A DNA stretch of 45,091 nucleotides from Deltaproteobacteria bacterium. GTDB taxonomy: Bacteria; UBA10199; 2-02-FULL-50-16; JAJFLM01. Of the stretch, positions 1-40,632 are shown piece after piece. The translations under genes were made by a program, and so were the position numbers. The notes under the pieces were generated by a model that saw nothing but the letters and a program-made list of their open reading frames with translations, ran no database searches and was not told the origin of the DNA. How positions within the stretch are numbered: the stretch's first letter is position 1; each line of letters begins with the position of its first letter. The stretch covers positions 1 to 45,091 of the forward strand of contig JAJFLM010000057.1 in NCBI GenBank assembly GCA_021772655.1. Reading direction: 5' to 3'.

Positions 1-1884
1 GTGACTGATCAGATAACGCAGACAAACGTTGAAAAAGCGCCGGAAGTACATGATGTTGAAGTGAAGACGACTCCGCAGGATATGTCGCATGATGACATTG
101 TTGATGTCTTGAACGGGTATCGAATGGAGGCGGAGCAGGCCAGAGAAGAAGGGGTCAATAGCAGAGATAGGGTGTGGGAAGATAACGTGGACCTGTACTG
201 GAACCGTTTCGACTTCAGCGACAAGGCGGAATGGCAGGCGACGGAAGTATTGCCGGAAGCGCCGCAGTTTGTCAATCGTTACGCTGCTGCGATGCGGTCC
301 GGTTTGACGCGTGATGGTGAGTTCTACACGGTAGAAGATCCTGCTGATCCGAATGGTGACATAGCCCCTGCGATCAAGAAGATGATGATGTTCTGGTTAT
401 CGAGATGCAGTCATAATGCAACAGGGCACCCGGTAGAGTTTGGTAGTCCGTTTGAGGATGTGATGAAGCTCGGCGCGTTGATGGCGAATTGTGCCGCTGT
501 AACATGGAAGGAGCGTAAGGGTAAAGGTTACGTTGCATTCGATCCGGTTGACCCAAGAATGGTGTTGTTGGACCCGACAGGTCGTGGGCTGTATCGTATT
601 GTTCGTCGTTATATCGACCGGCATGAATTGGAACATCTTGCAGGTATGAAGGACGGTAAGAGTGACAGTATTTACGATAAAGAATCCATCGAGTCGTTGC
701 AGGGACACTTGTCAGATGAAGACAAGAAGGAAGAAGAAGATTTGGCGGGGCATGGGAAAGATGACAATACTTCGACCCGCAAACCCGTGCAGCTTGATGA
801 GTTCCTATGCGATTTGATCGATCGTGATGGTTCCGTTCGTTACACTAATCATTTGTTTGTGGTGGCTAATAATCAGTTCCTGATTCGTGGCCCGGAGAAA
901 AACCCGTGGTGGCATGAGATGGACTGGTTGGTGTTTGCTCCGACAATTTCTGTGCCGTTATCTGTTTACGGCAAGACTTACATGGAAGACTGGTCGAATC
1001 TTGCAAGGACGTTTAATGAACTTACTAATTTGATTATAGATGCAGTTCATACTAATTCGATAAATGCGTTTGTTGGTAAACCCACGGCGCTTGAAGACCC
1101 AAACCAGTTGGAAGAGGGTATACATCCATCCAAGATATTCTACGTTGAAGAGAACGAAGATGTAAACGATGTCATCAAGAGTTTGGAACTTGGTAATCTT
1201 CCTCCTGAATCAATCACGTTATGGCAGGCGCTTAAGAAAGAGTTGCAAGAAGGTGCCATGTTCAGTGAGATTGCGCTTGGTCAGTTGTCGAGAGGTGAGA
1301 AGACGGCAACGGAGATTTCAGAAAGCCAACAGGGTTCACAGACTACATTGCAATCTATCGCAAAGAACATTGAGACAAATTTGCTGGAACCTGTTCTTGA
1401 TTTGATCTGGATGACCGGGTTACAGCATTTAAAGAAGAACGATCCTGAGATGCAGCAATTGATAGGCGAGCAGATGTATAATGCGATTTATTCAAAACGA
1501 AAAGAATTTATCAAGAAGTCCGTCAAGTTTAGAGTCAATGCAATTTCAGGCTTGATTGAGCGCAACGAGAAGTTTAAGAAACTGATGAATGCGTTGCAGA
1601 TCGTGGCGACGAATGAGATTCTTGTGCAGACTTTTGTGCAAAAAACAGACCCATCATTGCTAATTGATAATATATTCAAATTGATCGGTTTTAACATCGA
1701 CGATTTAAGCCCGAATGAGCGTAATGCCCAGATAGGCAATATTGTTCAAACGCAAAATGCTCAAGCGGATGCGTTAAGGGAAGCTTCAACAAATGCTCCG
1801 CCACAAAAATCGGGAACGGAGGTTTTAAATGAAACTATTTCGGCTGTTCAACCTTTAATTCAGCAGGGTGGCAATGGACAGTGA
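1..1884 (+). CDS. portal protein (putative)
   Basis: 627-aa ORF with GTG start. It follows the terminase genes once the window is circularised and precedes scaffold-like and capsid-like genes. SD GGAGAGGGAG lies at 45081..45090. Call rests on size and synteny only. Confidence 0.65.
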   Translation: MTDQITQTNVEKAPEVHDVEVKTTPQDMSHDDIVDVLNGYRMEAEQAREEGVNSRDRVWEDNVDLYWNRFDFSDKAEWQATEVLPEAPQFVNRYAAAMRSGLTRDGEFYTVEDPADPNGDIAPAIKKMMMFWLSRCSHNATGHPVEFGSPFEDVMKLGALMANCAAVTWKERKGKGYVAFDPVDPRMVLLDPTGRGLYRIVRRYIDRHELEHLAGMKDGKSDSIYDKESIESLQGHLSDEDKKEEEDLAGHGKDDNTSTRKPVQLDEFLCDLIDRDGSVRYTNHLFVVANNQFLIRGPEKNPWWHEMDWLVFAPTISVPLSVYGKTYMEDWSNLARTFNELTNLIIDAVHTNSINAFVGKPTALEDPNQLEEGIHPSKIFYVEENEDVNDVIKSLELGNLPPESITLWQALKKELQEGAMFSEIALGQLSRGEKTATEISESQQGSQTTLQSIAKNIETNLLEPVLDLIWMTGLQHLKKNDPEMQQLIGEQMYNAIYSKRKEFIKKSVKFRVNAISGLIERNEKFKKLMNALQIVATNEILVQTFVQKTDPSLLIDNIFKLIGFNIDDLSPNERNAQIGNIVQTQNAQADALREASTNAPPQKSGTEVLNETISAVQPLIQQGGNGQ

Positions 1885-2242
1885 AGCTAAGAAGAATATA
1901 GCGATAAATAATTTAACGCAGGAAATTCTTAAAGGAAAACTTGCCGATGCGAATCTTGAATTTCTTCAACGGCACTTGAGTAGGTTACAGGATTGTGTTG
2001 ATGAGTTTATTTATACAAAATTGCAAAGTGGCACTCCAACGAATGATGATTTATTGAGAGCTTATACTGAGAAATTCGCTTATGAGCGTATTTTACAAGC
2101 ATTGAGAAAATCGGCTCGATCCGGCAAGGGTGCTGGAGAGCAATTACAAAAACTTTCGGAGCAGAAAGATGTCAAAAAACGAACCGGAACAACTTATTCT
2201 ACCTACTCCGGGCTTGGAACAGGTGGAAACGGCAAGGCCTGA
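1874..2242 (+). CDS. hypothetical protein
   Basis: Track ORF 1868..2242. ATG at 1874 overlaps the portal stop. The 3' end overlaps the scaffold-like ORF by about 74 nt. Confidence 0.4.
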   Translation: MDSEAKKNIAINNLTQEILKGKLADANLEFLQRHLSRLQDCVDEFIYTKLQSGTPTNDDLLRAYTEKFAYERILQALRKSARSGKGAGEQLQKLSEQKDVKKRTGTTYSTYSGLGTGGNGKA

Positions 2243-2924
2243 GCCGGAAATTGAACAGGAAAAAGATCCTGTCCAGGAAAAAATAGCATCTATGGAAGCT
2301 AAATTACAGAAGTATGAAGAGCAGAACCGGATGTTGAATGAAAATATTCTAAAAATGGCAACGGCTCAACAGGTTCAGCCCAACCCAATTAACGATGTGC
2401 CTGAAATTAAGTTGCCGGAAAAGATTCCTGATCCTATTGATGATCCGACTGCGTATTCTGAGTACATTGACTTGAAGCAGGAGAAACGGTTACGTGAAGT
2501 GCAGACTAAAATGGAGCAAAAGTATCAGGAAAAGTTGCAGGCACAGGAAGATCAAACAAAATATGAAAGATTGAAATTGCGTTTTCAGGAGAAGTACCCT
2601 GAATTGGCAAAAAAGAATTTTGATTTCGTCGAGCATGTCGCTGTGAAGAAAATAAAAGAAGCTGCGGCAAACCGATTGGATGTAAATCAGTATGTTTACG
2701 GGAATTTAGATAAATTCATTGATGAAGTGGCACATTCAGCAAATGATCAGTTGGGTTTAGGCGAATTATCTGAAGATGGCAGGACTCAGGGATTATCCGC
2801 TGGTGGAACTTCTGTAAAACCTAAGCCAAAGCCCAAATCTAAAGAAAAAGGGTTTAATGAGCAGTTCAAGGAAATCAGGAACGCGACTCCAGGCATTTGG
2901 AATCCGAATTATCCTGTAACTTAA
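2169..2924 (+). CDS. scaffolding protein (putative)
   Basis: E/K/Q-rich, coiled-coil-like ORF between portal and capsid. ATG at 2169 is preceded by GGAGCAGAAAG. The track ORF starts at 2130. Confidence 0.55.
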   Translation: MSKNEPEQLILPTPGLEQVETARPEPEIEQEKDPVQEKIASMEAKLQKYEEQNRMLNENILKMATAQQVQPNPINDVPEIKLPEKIPDPIDDPTAYSEYIDLKQEKRLREVQTKMEQKYQEKLQAQEDQTKYERLKLRFQEKYPELAKKNFDFVEHVAVKKIKEAAANRLDVNQYVYGNLDKFIDEVAHSANDQLGLGELSEDGRTQGLSAGGTSVKPKPKPKSKEKGFNEQFKEIRNATPGIWNPNYPVT

Positions 2925-2936
2925 TATAAAAATACA

Positions 2937-2965
2937 TTGACACCTTTTGGCCATTAAAATATATG
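2937..2965 (+). promoter_or_regulatory. sigma70-like promoter upstream of the capsid gene
   Basis: TTGACA (2937..2942), 17-nt spacer, TATATG (2960..2965), in the intergenic gap before the 3013 ATG. Confidence 0.4.
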
Positions 2966-3012
2966 TAGTGTAGAAAGTTGGTGTAAACATTAATTACTAG
3001 GAGATACGGGGA

Positions 3013-3936
3013 ATGTCATGGCAATTTGATGCGCCGACCGGGGTTTATAAGAACCACGCACTTTCGAGTAGAATTCGACATCAGGCGATTGCCGATGCCT
3101 TGTTCATGCGCTGGTCTACACCTGAACCTGGGTACGGCAAAAATCGCGGCGAGAATGTAACAATTACAAGAATTCTATCTTTACCTTTGGCAAACCGGGT
3201 TTCCGAAACTGATCGGTTGCCAAGTGGTCGGCCTGCCATTCAAACCAAATCTCAACCTGTTAGTGAATGGGGTTATAAGATTCCACTTACTAATTTTGAG
3301 CGGATGTTGACTCATTATGAGGTTGAGCCTGAGTTTGAGAAAACCCTTCGAGACCAGATGACACTTACAATGGACAAGATGGTGGCGGACGCATTAAAAA
3401 CCACTCCTTATTTGTATGTACCTGCAGTTGGTGGCGGGGCATTTGATACGGATGGTACGTTTACCAACACAGCGGATCGCAATTTGAATATTGATGATCT
3501 GCGAAATATTTATGATGAAATGAGCGGTACATTGAAAATACCTCATTTCAACAATGGTATGTATGTTGGCATTCTGAGTACAAAAGCTGCTCGTGGGATT
3601 AAGAATGATTCAACCTATAAAGATTGGTTGGCTCCTAATACCGCAGAACCTTTTGTTTCTGGTCGTTTGAAAGATGTTGAAGGGTTCATGCTTTTTGAAA
3701 CAAATCATTTCGATGCTTTGGACAATACAGTTGGAACGGGTTCTGTTTTGGGTGAGGCTGTGTTCTTTGGACCTGACGCTTCGTTTATGGTTTCAGTTGA
3801 TGAACCTGAGATTCGCGTTGAACAGCCGACTGATTTGGGTAGGTTTAGAGAAGTTGGTTGGGTAGGGATTCTGGAAGCTGGATTGACTTGGGAAGTAGCT
3901 GCTCAGGCTAGAACTATCTACGTTGGGAGTGCGTAA
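3013..3936 (+). CDS. major capsid protein (putative)
   Basis: 307-aa ORF directly after the scaffold-like gene. Strong SD AGGAGATACGGGGA before the ATG. Position and size are typical of the capsid gene in a portal-scaffold-capsid module. Confidence 0.7.
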   Translation: MSWQFDAPTGVYKNHALSSRIRHQAIADALFMRWSTPEPGYGKNRGENVTITRILSLPLANRVSETDRLPSGRPAIQTKSQPVSEWGYKIPLTNFERMLTHYEVEPEFEKTLRDQMTLTMDKMVADALKTTPYLYVPAVGGGAFDTDGTFTNTADRNLNIDDLRNIYDEMSGTLKIPHFNNGMYVGILSTKAARGIKNDSTYKDWLAPNTAEPFVSGRLKDVEGFMLFETNHFDALDNTVGTGSVLGEAVFFGPDASFMVSVDEPEIRVEQPTDLGRFREVGWVGILEAGLTWEVAAQARTIYVGSA

Positions 3937-3960
3937 TAAATAACTTAGGAGAAGAATAAG

Positions 3961-29189: not shown

Positions 29190-31757
29190 TTACGCCGATG
29201 TCAAGGTGTTTTTACTTTTCATAATAAAATCAATCACTTCCTTCCTTGCCATCAATGCGTTATAAACCTTCTCGTCTACTGTGTCCTTAGCTAAAAGGTG
29301 GATAAACGTGACTTTATTCTTCTGCCCAGGCCGATGCAACCGTGACCGGCTTTGCAGATAATCTCCCAAGCTATATCCAAGAGAAAAATAAACAGCAAGA
29401 GAAGAACGAGAAAGATCAATCCCAACGCCTCCAGACTGGATTTGTACGCATAGCAAATCAATATTCTCAGGCATTGTAGCCTCGTCCGTAAGGTCGTTCC
29501 TGGAGCCAGAAACTTCGCCCATACGTAATCCGGTTCTATCCGCAAGTTTCCTCACCTCCCTTAAGTCGTTTTTGAATCGGCAAAATACAACCACCGGCTT
29601 GGCGCAATCATCTAAAATATCATGCAAAGCATCAATCTTGCACGACGACACGAACACATCCTCACCGCTCTCAGTCCTGCCAAATCCAGATGTAATCTGC
29701 TGCAATCTTAATAATACCACCATTGCATTTGCAGCCGTCATCTCACCTTCTTCTAGGTCAACATAGAAATCTTTCTCCAGCTTCTTGTAGATCTTCATAC
29801 ACGCCGCGTCCAGTTCGACCGGGATCATCTCATCAACTTCTGGCGGCAGTTCAAGCGCCTCTTCCTTCTTTACCTGATACGCCAGCATATTGAACCGATC
29901 CGTGAACTCGTCCATATTCTGATAGGAGATCACCTGATAACCGCCATATCCACCCTTTACAGCATATCTGGACTCGAACTTGCCATAATACGATCCGAAG
30001 ATGCCAACATCGAGGGCACGAAACTGACCGAACAGATCCATAGGAGAATGGGGCATCGGGTAGCCAGACAGAGCTATCTTACGGGGAATGTCATATAGCT
30101 CAATACCAATGAATCGACTGGCCGACCCTTTGCCCCTACTACCCTTAATTCGCTGTGACTCGTCAAGGATTAACAAATCCCATTGACTCTTGAGCAGGGC
30201 TGTCTTGAGAGGCTCGCGCCAACAGGAATCGTAATTGAGTACAGCAACCAAAGGCTCTCCCTTAGTCTGTGAAATGTCCAACTGTTGTTCTAACTGCCTA
30301 GCACGTTTGGCAATACTGCCTTTCGCCAATGGCACAACATTCCATTCCAGATTGGAATGAATACGGAATTGTTTAGGCCATACGTTTACGACTGATTTCG
30401 GGCAGATGATCAGTGTGCGCTTGGCTTGGGTTTCGCCGGCAACGGCAACGGCGCAGAGGGATTTACCAGTATTCCCTGAAATGAAAATACAGTTATTCCT
30501 TCTTAATACAAGAAAGCCATCAGGCACTGAGAAACAATATTTCCATCCATCTTCATTCGGGACAATAGAAATATTGTTATGAGAGTTCTTGCCGCCGATC
30601 CCAATTGCTTTATGGCGACTGTTTTTCCTAACATTAACAATGTATTCAGTTTTATGACTTCTTTTACTTCTTACAGTGATTGATGCTGGATACCCAATCC
30701 CTGAAAAACAATATTGGATAAAATCCGCCGATTCTTTTTCTGAAGAATAAAAGTAATTTGGTAAATTGTCGCTACGCCTTTGCCCATCCCAATTCAAACA
30801 TTCATCCGCAATAATTCTCATTTGCTCAAAAGAACATTTCCAAAATTGTTTGAATGATTTTGTTAAAATTGGAGGTCTAAAATAAAAACATTTACAACTA
30901 CCAGCATCTTTATGAATTTTGAAATCTATGTGACATTTTTTTAATAAAAATTCAATTCTTCGTTTTTTCCTTTCTTTTGAAACGCTGATTTTACCTTTCT
31001 CGGCAGAGCTTTTGACAATGCTACCATCTGCAATAAAAGCAACCATTAACCTGATTTCATATTCAGATAAATCAATCCCGCCCCCTAGATTTGAAATAAA
31101 TGTAGTAGGGATTTTCAGCTTTGTACCGTATTTTAAACGTTTATTATCGTTATAAAAATCAATTGCCTTAAGCCTTTTAAGACTTCCCTTTGTGTCTACA
31201 ACCAACATGGTATGTTCTTCGCTTATCATTTGATCTACACCAAATCTTGTTTTGATATGGATCATTTGCTCGCTTGGCTTTTTAATATAATCAGTTGGCT
31301 GAGTAAAATTAGAACTCTGAGAATGGATATTATATTGCGCTACCAGACCACCATCATATCGGTCTATTCTGCGCCATCCATCAGGGGATAAATACTCTGT
31401 ATCTCCTGAAAGTGGCCCCATTTCCATTGCCAACATAGAGGCTTTATGCTTTAAAGCCCATAAAATCCCTATTTCCTGATGTCTCCATGGAGTTGTTTTG
31501 AGACACCATTCGTCGCCACACCTGAGTGCGTCAAGACTCACATCGTTCTTGCTGTTAATCCAGATAAAGTTTTCGTTGGTCTGGAGTTTATCCCCAAGCG
31601 CCTGCTCTATCAGCTTTGCCGTGTGCGGACTCGCCGGGACCACATACTGCTTGCCAATCATGTCCCAACGCTTGGACAGAATCGGTTCCATCTCTTTCTT
31701 AATCACACGATCTGGCTTGATTAAGAAGTGCCCGTTATGGGTATTTATTTTGATCAT
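29190..31757 (-). CDS. SNF2-family ATPase/helicase interrupted by an intein
   Basis: WRHQEIG (Q motif), LAMEMG...TGKS (split motif I), LIICPKSVVNVWPKQF, LILDESQRIKG (DExx), and C-terminal VQIQSGGVGIDL and SRLHRPGQ (motif VI). Confidence 0.85.
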   Translation of the reverse strand: MIKINTHNGHFLIKPDRVIKKEMEPILSKRWDMIGKQYVVPASPHTAKLIEQALGDKLQTNENFIWINSKNDVSLDALRCGDEWCLKTTPWRHQEIGILWALKHKASMLAMEMGPLSGDTEYLSPDGWRRIDRYDGGLVAQYNIHSQSSNFTQPTDYIKKPSEQMIHIKTRFGVDQMISEEHTMLVVDTKGSLKRLKAIDFYNDNKRLKYGTKLKIPTTFISNLGGGIDLSEYEIRLMVAFIADGSIVKSSAEKGKISVSKERKKRRIEFLLKKCHIDFKIHKDAGSCKCFYFRPPILTKSFKQFWKCSFEQMRIIADECLNWDGQRRSDNLPNYFYSSEKESADFIQYCFSGIGYPASITVRSKRSHKTEYIVNVRKNSRHKAIGIGGKNSHNNISIVPNEDGWKYCFSVPDGFLVLRRNNCIFISGNTGKSLCAVAVAGETQAKRTLIICPKSVVNVWPKQFRIHSNLEWNVVPLAKGSIAKRARQLEQQLDISQTKGEPLVAVLNYDSCWREPLKTALLKSQWDLLILDESQRIKGSRGKGSASRFIGIELYDIPRKIALSGYPMPHSPMDLFGQFRALDVGIFGSYYGKFESRYAVKGGYGGYQVISYQNMDEFTDRFNMLAYQVKKEEALELPPEVDEMIPVELDAACMKIYKKLEKDFYVDLEEGEMTAANAMVVLLRLQQITSGFGRTESGEDVFVSSCKIDALHDILDDCAKPVVVFCRFKNDLREVRKLADRTGLRMGEVSGSRNDLTDEATMPENIDLLCVQIQSGGVGIDLSRSSLAVYFSLGYSLGDYLQSRSRLHRPGQKNKVTFIHLLAKDTVDEKVYNALMARKEVIDFIMKSKNTLTSA
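30471..31415 (-). mobile_element. intein (315 codons) with LAGLIDADG-type homing endonuclease domain
   Basis: The insert PLSGDTEYLSPDGW ... SEEH ... LMVAFIADGS ... KYCFSVPDGFLVLRRNNCIFISGN is followed by T. Removing it restores the SNF2 motif LAMEMG-TGKS. It is AT-rich relative to the flanks. Confidence 0.7.
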
Positions 31758-36502: not shown

Positions 36503-37690
36503 TCAGGTTTCAATTAAAGGAGAATATTTTTCGGGATTTTCGTTAAACGTCCAGGCGACCGCCTCTCTTGCCGTTTGAATATCTGGCGGAACCCGTAAAA
36601 AATAATTTGCGAATGCTTTTGGGTTTTCCTTTAAAGCAATCTGTTTTTCATGAACAGTCATTCCCTTACCTAAACCCTCATATTTAGGCGTACTGTCGAT
36701 CACCTTAACCATCACCAAAGGCTCATCATTTGCAATGTCCTTGCGGTACAATTCCCCAAATTTATCAGACTGAATTTTCTTCGCGCCCGACTGGATCAAA
36801 TATTTATCCCAACCAAAACGATCCAACATTACACGCTTAATTTCAGTGTTATTTTCAGAGTCAATATTTTTACAACTAATTTCATTAGGCTCCTCAATGA
36901 TCCAAGCTGGAACCCTAACCCCATGAACGGCATAGATAGCCCATCCGTCAGGGTAAGCAACGGCGGGGCCACTTAAATTATGGATACGGCCTTCCTCGTC
37001 ACGCTCAAGAATATTATGCCGTTCAGAAACCCAGCATATATTTTCATGTGGCAACCACCACCCTGCATTTTTTGCCTGTAACCAAAATCCTGATAATTTC
37101 TCAGTTTCATTTTTTAACAAACACACCTCGTTAAAATATTCGTAAAAGGCTAACCAACTAGCATCGTGCTGACCATAATTTGAATTACTGACGCTGGCCC
37201 CCACGCTGGCCCTCACGCTGTCCCACACGCTGGACCACCTCACGCTGTCCCACACACTGTCCCACACGCTGTCCCTCACGATGGAGTCCACGCTGGCCCC
37301 CACGCTGGCCCCCACGCTGTCCCACACGCTGGACCTCACGCTGGCCCCCACGCTGGCCCCCACGCTGGCCCCCACGCTGGAGTCCACGCTGGCCCACACG
37401 CTGGCCCACACGCTGGACCTCACGCTGGACCTCACGCTGGACTTCACGTTGTCTTTAATTAATTTTTTGTCGGAAATAATTGCCCTGGTCAAGCATTGCG
37501 AATAAGGAGAACCGCACCAAACGATTTTATTTGGAGGTTTTAGTCCAACTCTTTTATAAGCCTCAATAATTCCCAGCTCTGCCTCTTTTCGGTTTGCTGG
37601 CGCAGTGGACAATCCGATATCCGTCCATTTTTTTACAAATTCGGGGAACCGATCTCGCTGTGCTTGCGTTAACGATTTTATTTTGGCCAT
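36503..37690 (-). CDS. tetrapeptide-repeat protein (xSVx)n with conserved-looking N- and C-terminal domains
   Basis: 395 aa. The central ~88 residues are SVRSSVWASVWASVDSSVGASVGASV... The flanking regions look globular (W/H/Y-rich C-terminal domain). Confidence 0.6.
   Translation of the reverse strand: MAKIKSLTQAQRDRFPEFVKKWTDIGLSTAPANRKEAELGIIEAYKRVGLKPPNKIVWCGSPYSQCLTRAIISDKKLIKDNVKSSVRSSVRSSVWASVWASVDSSVGASVGASVGASVRSSVWDSVGASVGASVDSIVRDSVWDSVWDSVRWSSVWDSVRASVGASVSNSNYGQHDASWLAFYEYFNEVCLLKNETEKLSGFWLQAKNAGWWLPHENICWVSERHNILERDEEGRIHNLSGPAVAYPDGWAIYAVHGVRVPAWIIEEPNEISCKNIDSENNTEIKRVMLDRFGWDKYLIQSGAKKIQSDKFGELYRKDIANDEPLVMVKVIDSTPKYEGLGKGMTVHEKQIALKENPKAFANYFLRVPPDIQTAREAVAWTFNENPEKYSPLIET
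37188..37452 (-). repeat. about 22 tandem copies of a 12-nt unit (plus-strand consensus cacgctggcccc)
   Basis: Read directly. One 15-nt irregular unit is present. All frames on both strands are open across the array. Confidence 0.9.
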
Positions 37691-38848: not shown

Positions 38849-38878
38849 GGAGCCGAGGGCTAGCCTGCCCCCGACTCC
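38849..38878 (-). terminator. GC-rich hairpin downstream of the tRNA genes (terminator or processing signal)
   Basis: Minus strand GGAGTCGGGGGC-AGGCTA-GCCCTCGGCTCC forms a 12-bp stem (two G-U). It starts 20 nt after the tRNA-Ile 3' end. No clear U-tract. Confidence 0.4.
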
Positions 38879-38897
38879 GGATGGAACCCCAAGTTCC

Positions 38898-38970
38898 ACG
38901 TCTAAGCAGGAATTGAACCTGCGACAAACGGTTTATCAATCCGTTGCTCTAACCTCTGAGCTATTAGACA
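38898..38970 (-). tRNA. tRNA-Ile (anticodon GAU)
   Basis: Hand-folded cloverleaf: TGTCTAA-TA-GCTC-AGAGGTTA-GAGC-A-ACGGA-TTGATAA-ACCGT-TTGTC-GCAGG-TTCAATT-CCTGC-TTAGACG-T. U33, A37 and GG/TTC elements are present. There is a U1-G72 pair and an A31-A39 mismatch. CCA is not encoded. Confidence 0.75.
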
Positions 38971-39024
38971 ATGAGGTTGGTATTATTCAGAATTTTCATT
39001 ACCAGCAAATTGAGTTTGATATTT

Positions 39025-39127
39025 ACCAATGCTCTACCTCTGAGCTACTGCCCCATCATAAACCATCGACTTATCAATAGCTTATGGCGAGGCAGGTGGG
39101 ACTCGAACCCACGACCTTTGGTTAAAT
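39025..39127 (-). ncRNA. circularly permuted / split tRNA-like gene (3' half with CCA upstream of the matching 5' half)
   Basis: Minus strand 39122..39085 reads ACCAA-AGGTC-GTGGG-TTCGAGT-CCCAC-CTGCCTC-G-CCA. A 30-nt spacer follows. 39054..39025 reads GGGGCAG-TA-GCTC-AGAGGTA-GAGC-A-TTGGT. The acceptor pairs 7/7 (one G-U) and the anticodon-stem strands pair 5/5. Neither half has a partner in normal order. Confidence 0.55.
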
Positions 39128-39215
39128 TACCCTGGAATTACTTATCTGATTTCCAATATAAACTTATGGGTTAAGACAGCAAATACTACTGTTGACACGG
39201 ACAACAACACTAAGT

Positions 39216-39962
39216 TTAACCCATCAAATACTCCGTGATTTCCTTCCCAATAGATGCGTCTACTGCATCAATATTATTGGCTCGCATCCTGGCTTTTTTG
39301 ACCGCTCTGGATAGCTTATCCAAACGTGATAAAATTGCCATTTTCTCAGCCGGATGAATCATCCCGCACCATTTAGTAGTGATAAATCTACCTACATTCA
39401 TATCCTCATTCCACTTTTCCACTTGTGCAGGATGTTTATCTGTCGGTTGAACTAAAATTTTATGCTGGATCTGTTTTTTAGTGCGGTATTTTATTTCATC
39501 ATGCGTTGCTTTCCATGCGTATTCTTTATAATCAAATGCTGTTTCCCAAGCTGTTTGTGGATTAAGCGTTGGGATCATAGATAATCCTTCTTTCCATAAT
39601 TTTAATTTATTTTCTAAAGCCAGTAAAAAACAAACTGGAACATCTTTCGCTATCACAGTCCCATCAATTTCAATGTCACCTTTGGCTATTTGATTTGTTT
39701 TTTCCTTTTTCAACACATTGTCGAGGTAAGCTTCCGCAGAATTCAAAGTATATTTTAAACGCTCAGGAACTGTAGTTGCCATTTCCAAAAATTCGTCAGG
39801 GAATTCATTTTCACCTGTTTCCATAAATGACTCATAAGTCTTTTTTGCGCCTATAAATAAATTGTGTTTCTCTTTAAAGTTAATCTTTGTTTCCTGCCAA
39901 ATGCGCGTATATGCGCCTTCTAATTCTCCTTCAACTGCTAATATTTCATGTAATTTAGGCAT
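39216..39962 (-). CDS. hypothetical early protein
   Basis: 248-aa ORF, first gene downstream of the leftward promoter at 40020..40048. Family not recognised. Confidence 0.55.
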   Translation of the reverse strand: MPKLHEILAVEGELEGAYTRIWQETKINFKEKHNLFIGAKKTYESFMETGENEFPDEFLEMATTVPERLKYTLNSAEAYLDNVLKKEKTNQIAKGDIEIDGTVIAKDVPVCFLLALENKLKLWKEGLSMIPTLNPQTAWETAFDYKEYAWKATHDEIKYRTKKQIQHKILVQPTDKHPAQVEKWNEDMNVGRFITTKWCGMIHPAEKMAILSRLDKLSRAVKKARMRANNIDAVDASIGKEITEYLMG

Positions 39963-40000: not shown

Positions 40001-40029
40001 TTGACACATTCTTAATATTATCTTACTAT
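40001..40029 (+). promoter_or_regulatory. sigma70-like promoter (rightward) for the HTH gene
   Basis: TTGACA (40001..40006), 17 nt, TACTAT (40024..40029). Confidence 0.5.
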
Positions 40030-40048
40030 GAGAATTGCGAATTGTCAA
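40020..40048 (-). promoter_or_regulatory. sigma70-like promoter (leftward) for the 39962 operon
   Basis: Minus strand TTGACA (40048..40043), 17 nt, TAAGAT (40025..40020). Its -10 overlaps the -10 of the rightward promoter. Confidence 0.5.
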
Positions 40049-40063
40049 TATAAATTACAGCGA

Positions 40064-40315
40064 ATGGTGAATATGGAATACACAGCAATGCGGATCGCCA
40101 AGTCCTGCCAGTCGGAAGCTGAACGCGAGTGGACACGACTGGTCAGCAAGCACGGAATCAGCGATATTTACAAGGCTATTGTCAAACATGGCTATGCTAA
40201 TAGCCGGGAATCCCTGTATCAGTGGAAACGTGTGCCTCTGAAGCATCTAGTGCTAGTATCTCAGGCCATGCGCGTTCCAGTTCCGTCCCTATTACCGGAA
40301 GCTGGTGTTGAATGA
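40064..40315 (+). CDS. Cro/CI-type helix-turn-helix regulator (putative)
   Basis: Small basic ORF, the only plus-strand gene in this region, divergent from the 39962 operon. The segment ISDIYKAIVKHGYANSRESLYQWKRVP resembles YdaS/Cro-like HTH proteins. The track start 40028 lies inside the promoter, so ATG 40064 or 40073 is preferred. Confidence 0.5.
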   Translation: MVNMEYTAMRIAKSCQSEAEREWTRLVSKHGISDIYKAIVKHGYANSRESLYQWKRVPLKHLVLVSQAMRVPVPSLLPEAGVE

Positions 40316-40374: not shown

Positions 40375-40632
40375 TTAGGTTGCAAGATTGGCATGGTCCA
40401 CCTCCTCGAATTTTATTCTAATGGTTTTATCACGATAACATACAATTGCTCCGTCCATGTTGGCATTACACAAAAACGCCCCCCGCAAGTCCGCTCCCTC
40501 CAAGTTCGCTCCCCGCAAGTCCGCTTCCCACAAGTCCGCTTCCCGCAAGTTCGCTCGCCGCAAGTCCGCTCCCTGCAAGTCAGCTCCCCGCAAGTCAGCC
40601 TCTGGCCCTATCAAATAACCGTTGATTTTCAT
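40375..40632 (-). CDS. pentapeptide-repeat protein
   Basis: 85 aa. About nine consecutive A(D/N)LxG/E-type pentapeptides ([43 protein letters not shown]). SD GGAGGCAAGTA before the ATG. Confidence 0.75.
40484..40600 (-). repeat. about 8 tandem copies of a 15-nt unit (plus strand cgcaagtccgctccc) encoding the pentapeptide repeats
   Basis: Read directly. Confidence 0.85.

What the first reader, a model, noticed from the sequence alone, without database searches (positions are those of the whole stretch)
38971..39182. tRNA-like gene encoded in permuted order: 3' half (with CCA) upstream of its matching 5' half
On the minus strand, 39122..39085 encodes a textbook tRNA 3' half. It has the anticodon-stem 3' strand ACCAA, variable loop AGGTC and T-arm GTGGG-TTCGAGT-CCCAC. 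It also has the acceptor 3' strand CTGCCTC, discriminator G and an encoded CCA. Thirty nt further downstream, 39054..39025 encodes a textbook 5' half: acceptor GGGGCAG, U8-A9, D-arm GCTC-AGAGGTA-GAGC, A26 and anticodon-stem 5' strand TTGGT. The two halves pair with each other. The acceptor pairs 7/7 with one G2-U71, and the anticodon stem pairs 5/5. The helix can continue as AAAT/ATTT with one bulged A. Conserved tertiary positions are intact (U8, A14, G18G19, A21, G53-C61, T54-T55-C56, A58). I could find no 5' half upstream of the 3' half and no T-arm or acceptor downstream of the 5' half, so this is not a normal colinear tRNA. No combination of leader and trailer bases gives a 7-nt loop with U33 and a purine at 37. 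A candidate promoter sits just upstream (minus strand TTGCTG 39182..39177, 16 nt, TATATT 39160..39155). The 30-nt spacer can fold into a small hairpin (CCAT...ATGG). Permuted tRNA genes are established in Cyanidioschyzon merolae, a few other algae and Thermofilum. Permuted two-piece tmRNA genes are established in several bacterial lineages. I am not aware of such an arrangement being described for a phage tRNA-like gene. Possible outputs are a circularised-then-processed tRNA, a two-piece aminoacylatable tRNA-like RNA without an anticodon, or a rearranged relic.
Basis: partly seen in the sequence, partly recalled or inferred. Interest (0 to 1): 0.85.

Follow-up and report, generated by a model that had tools for sequence, protein, structure and literature searches.

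The report
Permuted tRNA-mimic RNA with DUF7873 partner
What looks like a tRNA gene with its two halves swapped is a real, conserved non-coding RNA that folds like a tRNA without an anticodon; it sits directly after an uncharacterised protein gene (DUF7873) in hundreds of phages and bacteria, so the two probably form an undescribed RNA-protein particle built on the same plan as bacterial Y RNAs.

Summary
On the minus strand the order is variable loop, T arm, acceptor 3' strand, G73-CCA (39122-39085), a 30-nt spacer, then acceptor 5' strand, U8A9, D arm and TTGGT (39054-39025). It is not a tRNA gene, a tmRNA or a scar. It is the core of a ~180-210-nt structured RNA. The "anticodon stem" continues into a long helix made by the RNA's own ends, so there is no anticodon loop. 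This is the circularly permuted tRNA fold already known from YrlA Y RNAs of bacteria and phages. The best Rfam hit is YrlA at 39 bits, below the 69-bit threshold. The Ro60-binding motif and a Ro60 gene are absent. Instead the RNA always follows a DUF7873 gene (39962-39216). This pairing holds in at least 83 of 85 phage loci, in cultured Rhizobium and Arthrobacter phages where the RNA is unannotated, and in most of 80 bacterial genomes. Every helix covaries, as do the Levitt pair and the 9-12-23 triple. The phage copies keep an encoded CCA (58/64), a 7-bp acceptor stem and a U-A-U leader. This suggests excision of the spacer to give a two-piece RNA with a tRNA-like 3' end. Verdict: a new variant of a known kind, function unknown.

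The parts
40020..40048 (-). Sigma-70-like promoter TTGACA-17-TAAGAT upstream of DUF7873. It is the likely start of a DUF7873 / RNA / tRNA-Ile transcript.
   Evidence: 10 of 12 consensus matches. No minus-strand terminator-like site lies between it and the RNA. Consensus match only; function is inferred.
39216..39962 (-). DUF7873 (PF25283) protein gene, 248 aa. It is the conserved upstream partner of the RNA.
   Evidence: E 7e-68. Relatives are followed by the RNA. AF2 model pLDDT 90 has no PDB or BFVD neighbour.
39157..39186 (-). Conserved 5' element. The family consensus is UUAGNN-UUUUGNCCCNNCAGNUUYAG; the window reads ..UUUGCUGUCUUAACCCAUAAGUUUAUA.
   Evidence: Alignment A2 has positions conserved at 90% or more. 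Hairpin covariation is only weak. Role unknown.
39153..39156 (-). P0 5' strand UUGG, pairs with 38980-38977.
   Evidence: in the MFE and in the homology-constrained fold.
39145..39149 (-). P1 5' strand UCAGA, pairs with 38991-38987.
   Evidence: An equivalent helix is seen in homologues.
39139..39142 (-). AGUA in the internal loop between P1 and P2, facing GAAA at 38997-38994. Possible loop-E / bulged-G motif.
   Evidence: AGUA in 27/64 (shuffled 14.7). YGAAA in 24/64 (shuffled 10.1), clustered at +31 to +35. The motif assignment is inferred.
39124..39138 (-). P2 5' strand segments (AUU, CCAG, GGUA, UUU), pairing with 39024-38998.
   Evidence: P2 columns of A2 are 72% paired with changes on both sides in 6/6 pairs.
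39118..39122 (-). P3 5' strand ACCAA, the equivalent of the anticodon-stem 3' strand. Pairs with 39029-39025.
   Evidence: P3 covaries in A2 (5/5 pairs with changes on both sides).
39113..39117 (-). Variable loop AGGUC. C48 forms the Levitt pair with G15.
   Evidence: columns 124:258 are C:G in 48, U:A in 13 and other in 3.
39096..39112 (-). T arm GUGGG-UUCGAGU-CCCAC.
   Evidence: 99.4% paired.
39085..39095 (-). Acceptor 3' strand CUGCCUC, discriminator G73, encoded CCA.
   Evidence: CCA is present in 58/64 homologues. The acceptor is 99.3% paired, with 7/7 pairs compensatory.
39055..39084 (-). 30-nt spacer. It forms a 13-bp hairpin (39086-39074 with 39069-39057) stacked on the acceptor stem. 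It is the candidate excised segment.
   Evidence: z = -3.9 against shuffled spacers. Excision is inferred, not shown.
39046..39054 (-). Acceptor 5' strand GGGGCAG plus U8 A9.
   Evidence: U8 is present in 64/64.
39031..39045 (-). D arm GCUC-AGAGGUA-GAGC.
   Evidence: 97.7% paired; GCUC/GAGC varies to GUUC/GAAC, GUCU/GGAC, ACUC/GAGU, CCUC/GAGG and others.
38977..39030 (-). 3' strand of the long helix: A26, P3 UUGGU 39029-25, P2 39024-38998, GAAA 38997-94, P1 UCUGA 38991-87, P0 CCAA 38980-77.
38898..38970 (-). Ordinary tRNA-Ile(GAT), 6 nt after P0. RNase P cleavage at its 5' end would define the 3' end of the tRNA-like RNA.
   Evidence: 62.6 bits. A tRNA directly follows the element in many homologous loci.

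Best explanation
The two 'halves' belong to one gene for a structured non-coding RNA of about 180-210 nt (about 39186/39156 to 38977, minus strand). Its core is a circularly permuted tRNA fold in this order: variable loop, T arm, 7-bp acceptor stem closed by a spacer, U8A9, D arm. The 'anticodon stem' (39122-18 with 39029-25) continues into a long interrupted helix (P2, an AGUA/GAAA internal loop, P1, P0) formed by the RNA's own 5' and 3' ends. There is therefore no anticodon and no decoding function. This is the architecture of the tRNA-like module of YrlA Y RNAs, but the RNA belongs to a separate class. It lacks the Ro60-binding module, and it is genetically coupled to the DUF7873 gene immediately upstream. 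Proposed working, inferred: DUF7873, the RNA and tRNA-Ile are co-transcribed from the promoter at 40048-40020. RNase P cutting at the tRNA-Ile 5' end releases the RNA's 3' end. DUF7873 binds the RNA, probably at the conserved stem loop and 5' element, to form an RNP. The tRNA-shaped head of that RNP then engages a tRNA-handling host factor, as Y RNAs use theirs to tether an effector. In the phage subgroup, including this window, the spacer is probably excised by RNase P 5' of G39054 plus 3' trimming back to CCA. That would leave a two-piece RNA held together by the acceptor stem and the long helix, with a free tRNA-like CCA 3' end. My probabilities: conserved permuted-tRNA-fold ncRNA 0.97; functional partner of DUF7873 0.8; cut into two pieces about 0.5; aminoacylated 0.1 or less. 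The overall confidence given (0.7) is for the core claim: a YrlA-like permuted-tRNA-fold ncRNA that works with DUF7873 rather than Ro60.
For: SHOWN. The sequence anatomy is exactly as described. There is no colinear tRNA or tmRNA. The best Rfam match is YrlA over the full model, 39.2 bits, E 5e-7. The same element lies 100-770 nt downstream of DUF7873, on the same strand, in 80/85 phage-derived loci. The covariance model adds L004, L008, L019 and L021. It is present in the unannotated gap after the DUF7873 gene of Rhizobium phage RHph_TM30 and, in two copies, of Arthrobacter phage Racecar. It follows DUF7873 in 63/80 bacterial genome loci, often as two tandem copies. Covariation is strong: 15/16 core pairs are compensatory; the highest mutual-information column pairs are exactly the three helices, the Levitt 15:48 pair (C:G 48, U:A 13) and the 9-12-23 triple; overall 82% of cells are paired against 58% when shuffled and about 40% when slid. 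The flanking helix is present in the window's unconstrained MFE (z = -3.7), and the homology-consistent fold is only 1.6 kcal/mol above the MFE. Gene neighbourhoods are otherwise unrelated, so only the gene-RNA pair is conserved. For processing: CCA in 58/64, a 7-bp stem, U8 in 64/64, and U-A-U at -3 to -1 in 48, 43 and 35 of 64. Spacers of 3-91 nt are either unstructured A/U loops or stable hairpins, as expected for a dispensable intervening segment. As precedent, M. smegmatis YrlA has a 7-bp acceptor stem and is cleaved by RNase P in vivo and in vitro, then ends in CCA (PMC4201824). For co-transcription: a strong promoter lies upstream of DUF7873 and no terminator intervenes.
Against: There are no expression, processing or binding data; every functional step is inference. 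DUF7873 has no known fold or function, so RNA binding is assumed from gene linkage only. Some divergent bacterial DUF7873 homologues (Herpetosiphon, Cytophagales) have no such RNA within 5 kb, even with the search filters off. A few phage permuted tRNA-like RNAs have no DUF7873 nearby (L210, L281, L282), so the coupling is strong but not absolute. In the window, C75 and A76 and the -1 base are paired inside an extended acceptor hairpin, which is not an ideal RNase P substrate. The bacterial copies have short closed loops and only partial CCA, so cleavage cannot be a property of the whole family. Acceptor stems and discriminators vary freely, which argues against a fixed aminoacylation identity.
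Confidence: 0.7

Rival explanations
1. It is an ordinary YrlA-type Y RNA that works with a Ro60 (Rsr) protein, supplied by the host or encoded outside this window. DUF7873 would then be merely a neighbour or an accessory factor of the Ro60 system.
For: It has the same T / acceptor / D topology and tertiary pairs as YrlA (10.1101/312249). YrlA is the best Rfam hit. In one phage contig (L080) a Ro60 homologue overlaps the start of DUF7873, which is followed by the RNA.
Against: The score is 39 bits against a gathering score of 69. DUF7873-linked RNAs score 30-40 bits, whereas the RNA beside Ro60 in the same L080 contig scores 60.7, so L080 carries both kinds. The Ro60-binding motif GNCGAAN0-1G is not enriched (4/64 against 1.7 expected, at scattered positions). 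No TROVE/Ro60 domain was found in the 20 largest ORFs of the window scanned. No Ro60 relative turned up within the held flanks of the other DUF7873 loci. That check used tblastn with the single L080 phage Ro60 as query over all held loci plus Pfam on selected large ORFs, so it is a limited test.
Confidence: 0.1
2. It is a cis-acting tRNA-like processing or stability element of the DUF7873 / tRNA transcript. It would act as an RNase P 'punctuation' site or 3'-UTR protector and have no trans-acting role.
For: It always lies in the 3' region of the DUF7873 gene on the same strand, and often directly before tRNA genes. No separate strong promoter was found.
Against: A simple RNase P site would not need a complete L-shaped fold with the Levitt pair and base triples, a long conserved helix with an AGUA/GAAA loop, and a conserved 5' element. 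In actinobacterial chromosomes two tandem copies follow DUF7873 without any tRNA array.
Confidence: 0.1
3. It is a minimal two-piece tmRNA-like molecule. After processing, the CCA end would be charged and the RNA would enter stalled ribosomes, with DUF7873 playing an SmpB-like role.
For: The gene order, T arm then acceptor-CCA then intervening segment then acceptor 5' strand, is that of permuted tmRNA genes. There are weak partial hits to beta_tmRNA (23 bits) and tmRNA_permuted (17 bits) over the T arm and acceptor. The window's 3' strand can be read as GCU GGU AAU GAA AAU UCU GAA UAA, which would encode AGNENSE-stop (read).
Against: ARAGORN finds no tmRNA. There is a full D stem, unlike tmRNA. 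The whole 3' flank is base-paired with the 5' flank, which leaves no pseudoknot and no single-stranded reading frame. There is no G3:U70 or any other constant identity element. The Rfam matches cover only the generic T arm and acceptor.
Confidence: 0.03
4. It is a true permuted or split tRNA gene, or a recombination or integration scar made of leftover tRNA halves.
For: The 3' half precedes the 5' half and the two are mutually complementary.
Against: There is no anticodon loop in any of more than 100 copies. The stem continues to the transcript ends. Bacteria lack the BHB-splicing endonuclease pathway used for permuted tRNAs (established knowledge). A scar would not be conserved with compensatory changes in unrelated phages and in bacterial chromosomes. 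No integrase or att context lies at this site in the window.
Confidence: 0.01

Closest known systems
YrlA (Y RNA-like A; Rfam RF02553), the Ro60/Rsr-bound tRNA-mimicking Y RNA of bacteria and some phages
   Same: The core topology is identical: variable loop, T arm, acceptor-like stem closed by a loop, UA, D arm, with the anticodon-stem equivalent leading to a helix formed by the RNA ends. It has the same conserved tertiary set (U8, A14, G18G19, T-loop, covarying Levitt pair, 9-12-23 triple). It was described in print as resembling a circularly permuted tRNA. Some YrlAs, in cyanobacteria, also have long acceptor stems.
   Different: There is no GNCGAAN0-1G Ro60-binding strand and no adjacent rsr gene. 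The Rfam score is about half the gathering score. The RNA is coupled instead to DUF7873. Its outer domain is different (AGUA/GAAA loop, UUGNCCC..CAG..UUYAG 5' element). The phage copies encode N73-CCA.
Mycobacterium smegmatis YrlA (Chen et al. 2014, PMC4201824)
   Same: It has a 7-bp acceptor stem. It is cleaved by RNase P at the tRNA +1 position, and its 5' fragment ends in CCA. The result is a two-piece tRNA-like RNA, which is the processing proposed here.
   Different: There the CCA is partly added after transcription, and the RNA is bound by Rsr. Here the CCA is encoded, the spacer can be a long hairpin, and processing is untested.
Two-piece (circularly permuted) tmRNA genes of alpha-proteobacteria, cyanobacteria and some beta-proteobacteria
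   Same: The gene order is the same, with an acceptor piece carrying an encoded CCA, an excised intervening segment, then the 5' acceptor strand. The two pieces are held together by helices.
   Different: tmRNA has no D stem. It carries pseudoknots and a tag reading frame and works with SmpB. None of these is present here.
Permuted tRNA genes of Cyanidioschyzon merolae, other algae and Thermofilum
   Same: The 3' half is encoded upstream of the 5' half.
   Different: Those genes encode complete tRNAs with anticodon loops, matured through a circular intermediate by the eukaryal/archaeal splicing machinery. Here there is no anticodon loop and the host is bacterial.

Membership tests
Canonical (colinear) tRNA gene | Order 5' acceptor, D arm, anticodon arm with 7-nt loop, T arm, 3' acceptor. 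| tested here: not met
   ARAGORN and the Rfam tRNA model call only tRNA-Ile at 38970-38898. The order here is T, acceptor, D.
Permuted tRNA gene (C. merolae type) | A complete anticodon stem-loop contained in one of the two halves. | tested here: not met
   The stem ACCAA/UUGGU continues as P2, P1 and P0 to the RNA ends in the window and in homologues.
Permuted tRNA gene (C. merolae type) | Maturation through a circular intermediate by a BHB-recognising splicing endonuclease and a ligase. | not testable with these tools
   This needs RNA data. The pathway is not known in bacteria (established knowledge).
Two-piece tmRNA | tRNA-like domain plus pseudoknot(s) and a tag reading frame with a resume codon; recognised by ARAGORN or the Rfam tmRNA models. 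| tested here: not met
   No tmRNA. beta_tmRNA scores 23.4 bits (gathering score 84) and tmRNA_permuted 17 bits (gathering score 47), covering only the T arm and acceptor. The 3' flank is fully paired.
YrlA Y RNA (RF02553) | tRNA-like module in the order T arm, acceptor stem-loop, D arm, with tRNA tertiary pairs. | tested here: met
   The features are as defined in PMC4201824 and 10.1101/312249.
YrlA Y RNA (RF02553) | Score at or above the Rfam gathering threshold (69 bits). | tested here: not met
   The window scores 39.2 bits. None of 20 phage loci and none of 13 bacterial loci reach the threshold. DUF7873-linked RNAs score 30-40 bits.
YrlA Y RNA (RF02553) | Ro60-binding motif GNCGAAN0-1G in the 5' strand. 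| tested here: not met
   Absent from the window's 5' region. Found in 4/64 homologues against 1.7 expected, at scattered positions.
YrlA Y RNA (RF02553) | Encoded next to a Ro60/Rsr (TROVE) gene and bound by it. | tested here: not met
   Adjacency: no TROVE domain in the 20 window ORFs scanned. Among DUF7873 loci, only L080 has a Ro60 gene nearby. Binding cannot be tested here.
DUF7873-associated permuted tRNA-like RNA (class defined here) | Permuted tRNA core lying at most about 800 nt downstream of a DUF7873 gene on the same strand. | tested here: met
   In the window the T arm starts about 100 nt after the stop codon. The same holds in at least 83/85 phage loci, in cultured phages and in 63/80 genome loci.
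DUF7873-associated permuted tRNA-like RNA (class defined here) | Phage subclass: 7-bp acceptor stem, encoded N73-CCA, spacer, usually U at -1. | tested here: met
   The window has CTGCCTC-G-CCA, a 30-nt spacer ending ..GAU, then GGGGCAG.
DUF7873-associated permuted tRNA-like RNA (class defined here) | Physical RNP with the DUF7873 protein. | not testable with these tools
   Only gene linkage is available.

The most novel reading that the evidence does not exclude
DUF7873 plus the permuted tRNA-like RNA is a previously unrecognised, widespread two-component RNP of phages and bacteria, independent of Ro60. In phages the RNA would be cut into a two-piece molecule with a genuine tRNA acceptor end (N73-CCA-3'OH) but no anticodon. 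That end would be used to engage, decoy or hijack host tRNA-handling machinery such as RNase P, the CCA-adding enzyme, 3' exonucleases or PNPase, EF-Tu and the ribosome, or defence toxins that target the tRNA CCA end.
Probability: 0.35. Interest if true: 0.85.

Novelty: new variant of a known kind. Interest (0 to 1): 0.66.

Why it matters
The only well-understood bacterial RNAs that copy the whole tRNA shape are tmRNA and the Ro60-bound YrlA Y RNAs. What the tRNA-like head of YrlA is for remains an open question. This window shows that the same permuted tRNA fold has a second, apparently undescribed protein context. The partner is a 250-aa protein of unknown fold (DUF7873). The gene-RNA pair occurs in hundreds of uncultured phages. 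It also occurs in cultured Rhizobium and Arthrobacter phages (RNA confirmed). DUF7873 is further present in Vibrio, Klebsiella, Serratia, Gordonia and cyanobacterial phages. In the chromosomes of Streptomyces, Nocardia and other bacteria the pair stands alone among housekeeping genes. The RNA is unannotated in GenBank records and absent from Rfam. The system is experimentally accessible in cultured hosts. It offers a direct test of what a tRNA-shaped head without an anticodon does, and of whether phages make two-piece RNAs with a real CCA end. For annotation, it explains a recurrent 'empty' gap inside phage tRNA arrays. It also warns that half-tRNA matches there are neither pseudogenes nor att sites.

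Tried and rejected
(1) Close relatives of the window phage: none exist. DNA search of GenBank phages hit only the tRNA-Ile. An exact 28-mer of the element and DUF7873 peptide words found nothing in IMG/VR. TerL is at most 27% identical to known phages. All comparison therefore rests on distant homologues (40-50% protein identity).
(2) Fold and function of DUF7873: a PDB sequence profile gave nothing. Foldseek against the PDB and BFVD gave no significant hit. PHROGs, PADLOC and NCBIfam gave nothing. A literature search for 'DUF7873' returned 0 papers.
(3) A third conserved gene: all-against-all clustering of ORFs around 165 loci gave only shadow ORFs and lineage-specific genes. A nucleotidyltransferase upstream in Streptomyces is confined to 7 close relatives. 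CCA-adding enzyme (L031, L038), one T4 Rnl1-type RNA ligase hit and Ro60 (L080) are sporadic neighbours.
It has a weak -35, it overlaps the conserved 5' element, and transcription from it would begin inside the P0/P1 helices.
(5) The 5' element as a hairpin has only weak support (50% of cells paired).
(6) Recurrence of the 5' element's short word in the 3' internal loop gave a modest same-sense signal (6/500 permutations reach it). This is not corrected for relatedness and is left unexplained.
(7) A tmRNA tag reading of the 3' strand was rejected (see rivals).
(8) Literature searches for permuted or tRNA-like phage ncRNAs found only the YrlA papers.
Full report
OBSERVATION. The order is ACCAA (39122-18), AGGTC, T arm GTGGG-TTCGAGT-CCCAC (39112-39096), CTGCCTC (39095-89), G73 and CCA (39087-85). 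A 30-nt spacer follows (39084-55), then GGGGCAG (39054-48), TA, D arm GCTC-AGAGGTA-GAGC (39045-31), A26 and TTGGT (39029-25). ARAGORN, which also searches for permuted tmRNA, reports a single gene in the 45-kb window. That gene is an ordinary tRNA-Ile(GAT) at 38970-38898, directly downstream. Rfam at gathering thresholds agrees. So there are no colinear partners for either half.

FIRST LEAD. With permissive thresholds, the best Rfam match over 39144-38999 is YrlA (RF02553, 'Y RNA-like'). It matches the full model at 39.2 bits, E 5e-7, below the 69-bit gathering score. There is a 36-nt insertion in the loop that closes the acceptor-like stem. The tmRNA models match only the T arm and acceptor. 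YrlA RNAs are Ro60/Rsr-bound bacterial and phage RNAs. Their effector module has the order T arm, acceptor stem-loop, D arm, and they were described as resembling circularly permuted tRNAs. M. smegmatis YrlA has a 7-bp acceptor stem; it is cleaved by RNase P and ends in CCA (PMC4201824; bioRxiv 10.1101/312249). So the architecture itself is known, including in phages.

CONTEXT. The window is phage-like, with terminase, primase, SNF2 and UvrD helicases and an SU10-type adaptor. It has no close relatives. No TROVE/Ro60 domain was found in its 20 largest ORFs scanned. The gene ending about 100 nt upstream of the T arm (39962-39216) is a full-length DUF7873 (PF25283, E 7e-68). A strong sigma-70-like promoter (TTGACA-17-TAAGAT, 40048-40020) precedes that gene. 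No terminator-like site separates gene, RNA and tRNA-Ile.

THE GENE-RNA PAIR IS CONSERVED. DUF7873 has hundreds of relatives at 50% identity or less. A profile search fetched 80 of 427 IMG/VR loci. A structural scan found the element 100-770 nt downstream of the gene, on the same strand, in 80 of 85 loci. The scan required a T arm, 7 nt, N, usually CCA, a spacer, a complementary 7 nt, 2 nt and a D arm. A covariance model of the core (R1) recovered L004, L008, L019 and L021. It gave one strong hit in the window (39124-39023, 73.4 bits). Cultured phages also carry DUF7873: Rhizobium, Arthrobacter, Vibrio, Klebsiella, Serratia, Gordonia, Pseudanabaena and Microcoleus phages. In Rhizobium phage RHph_TM30 and Arthrobacter phage Racecar the gene is annotated 'hypothetical'. 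It lies inside the tRNA array and is followed by an unannotated 400-450-nt gap. That gap contains the RNA, in two tandem copies in Racecar. In one-genome-per-species bacterial data, at least 549 loci encode DUF7873. Of the 80 loci held, 63 carry one downstream RNA or, in actinobacteria, two tandem RNAs. They are flanked by unrelated housekeeping genes and no Ro60. Neighbouring genes are otherwise not conserved. The coupling is not absolute. Herpetosiphon and Cytophagales homologues lack the RNA, and three phage RNAs of this shape have no DUF7873 in the held flanks.

STRUCTURE. Sixty-four non-redundant RNAs were aligned (A2). RNAalifold recovers the T arm, the 7-bp acceptor stem and the D arm, with 15 of 16 pairs showing compensatory changes. 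The top mutual-information column pairs are exactly these helices. Next come the Levitt pair 48:15 (C:G 48, U:A 13) and couplings among positions 9, 12 and 23, the signature of a true L-shaped tRNA fold. For a named structure including the flanking helices, 82% of cells pair, against 58% when shuffled and about 40% when slid. The core helices pair at 97.7-99.4% and P2 and P3 at about 70%, with changes on both sides in every pair. The sequence-only alignment of the flanks limits the P2 and P3 figures. In the window, the unconstrained MFE already forms P0 (39156-53 with 38980-77), P1 (39149-45 with 38991-87), P2, the T arm, the D arm and an extended acceptor arm (z = -3.7). Enforcing the homologous P3 costs 1.6 kcal/mol. 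An AGUA (5' strand) facing YGAAA (3' strand, +31 to +35) internal loop is enriched. The window has both, at 39142-39 and 38997-94. A sequence-conserved 5' element, UUGNCCCNNCAGNUUYAG, lies about 70 nt upstream of the T arm. Its role is unknown.

NOT A CANONICAL YrlA. The Ro60-binding motif GNCGAAN0-1G is not enriched (4/64 against 1.7 expected). No DUF7873-linked RNA reaches the YrlA gathering score; they score 30-40 bits. Contig L080 is instructive. Its order is tRNAs, an RNA scoring 60.7 bits as YrlA, a Ro60 homologue (vWA_Ro60, E 4e-23), DUF7873 overlapping the Ro60 stop codon, then a second permuted RNA scoring only 30.7 bits over the core. The two RNA classes therefore coexist. This hints at a functional relationship without identity. 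L190 shows the classical layout of tandem RNAs followed by Ro60.

PROCESSING SIGNALS. In the phage set, CCA follows the acceptor 3' strand in 58/64 and U8 is invariant. Positions -3 to -1 before G+1 are U, A and U in 48, 43 and 35 of 64. The discriminator varies, and the spacer ranges from 3 to 91 nt and is A/U-rich. Short spacers are open loops. Long ones, including the window's, are stable hairpins (median z -3.6) that usually stack on the acceptor stem and pair C75 and A76 (21/35). In the window this gives 8 + 13 bp. CCA is kept in both contexts, the intervening segment varies freely, and M. smegmatis provides a precedent. Together these make excision of the spacer plausible, by RNase P at G39054 plus 3' trimming to A39085. 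This is unproven; I put it near 0.5. The bacterial copies have 5-8-nt closed loops and only partial CCA, so they probably stay closed. Variable acceptor stems and discriminators, and no G3:U70, argue against a defined aminoacylation identity.

PROTEIN. AlphaFold2 gives a confident DUF7873 model (pLDDT 90, pTM 0.75). It has a long beta hairpin whose tip carries the invariant HPAQ motif, and a basic C-terminal helix KKARxRAN. Nothing similar was found in the PDB by sequence or fold, or in BFVD, PHROGs, PADLOC or NCBIfam. No paper mentions the family.

CONCLUSION. The finding is real and is not a tRNA gene, tmRNA, relic or att scar. It is a member of a large, unannotated class of circularly permuted tRNA-fold RNAs. 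This class shares its design with YrlA Y RNAs but is coupled to DUF7873 rather than Ro60. The most likely mechanism is a DUF7873-RNA particle whose tRNA-shaped head engages tRNA-handling factors. In phages the RNA is possibly opened into a two-piece form with a free CCA end. Conservation, covariation and linkage are shown. Transcription, processing, binding and function are inferred. Literature searches found no description of this class. Only open-access text was searchable, so prior description elsewhere cannot be excluded.

Noticed in passing
L080 (IMGVR_UViG_3300017963_000201) 256-3943: One phage contig carries, in order, tRNA-Leu, tRNA-Tyr, a near-threshold YrlA RNA (438-574, 60.7 bits), a Ro60 homologue (1383-3005), DUF7873 (3001-3720, overlapping the Ro60 stop) and a second permuted tRNA-like RNA (3869-3943). 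Both RNA classes and both proteins sit in one apparent operon.
   Followed up: partly
L085-L164, e.g. L147 5808-6053 (Streptomyces sp. NBC_01340), L098, L166 3311-3564 (Arthrobacter phage Racecar): Actinobacterial chromosomes and actinophages carry DUF7873 followed by two tandem closed-loop permuted tRNA-like RNAs. The chromosomal copies lie among unrelated housekeeping genes, so this is a cellular module and not only a phage one.
   Followed up: partly
L210 1994-2078, L281 510-584 (-), L282 4093-4168 (-): Phage contigs with high-scoring permuted tRNA-like RNAs (59-62 bits with model R1) but neither DUF7873 nor Ro60 in the held flanks. Further partner classes may exist.
   Followed up: partly
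L020 3987-4061, L029 3993-4067, L082 7003-7077: ARAGORN calls odd 'tRNA-???' genes with 2- or 4-nt anticodons directly after the permuted RNA in several loci.
   Followed up: no
window 39157-39186 and 39010-39024 (minus strand); A2 columns 46-53 and 269-300: The short word at the end of the conserved 5' element (UUUAG, UGUGAG, UUUAU, CUCAU) tends to recur in the same sense in the 3' internal loop after P3. Only 6 of 500 permutations reach the observed match, and there is no antisense signal. These could be two sites for one binder; unexplained.
   Followed up: partly
window 36503-37690 (-): A 395-aa DUF6745 protein with a long internal run of degenerate SV(R/W/G)(S/A/D) repeats.
   Followed up: no
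window 29190-31757 (-): An 855-aa SNF2-type helicase. Its residues about 108-441 match PhoH-like and ribonucleotide-reductase PHROGs, and residues 329-376 weakly match LAGLIDADG_3. This suggests an intein or homing-endonuclease insertion.
   Followed up: no
window 40001-40048: Back-to-back strong sigma-70-like promoters, TTGACA-17-TACTAT (+) and TTGACA-17-TAAGAT (-). They lie between a 95-aa plus-strand ORF (40028-40315) and the DUF7873 operon, forming a divergent control region.
   Followed up: no
window 38849-38897 (-): Directly after tRNA-Ile there is a 5-bp hairpin (GGAAC/GUUCC) and then a 12-bp GC-rich hairpin (GGAGUCGGGGGC/GCCCUCGGCUCC) with only a weak U tract. The terminator scan does not call either.
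   Followed up: no
window 40375-40632 (-): An 85-aa pentapeptide-repeat protein (ADLRGANL-type repeats) upstream of the locus.
   Followed up: no
L055 5505-5895: A phage-encoded standard one-piece tmRNA gene (tag GKQPSKAEPMKLAA*) lies 1.7 kb downstream of the DUF7873-RNA pair.
   Followed up: no
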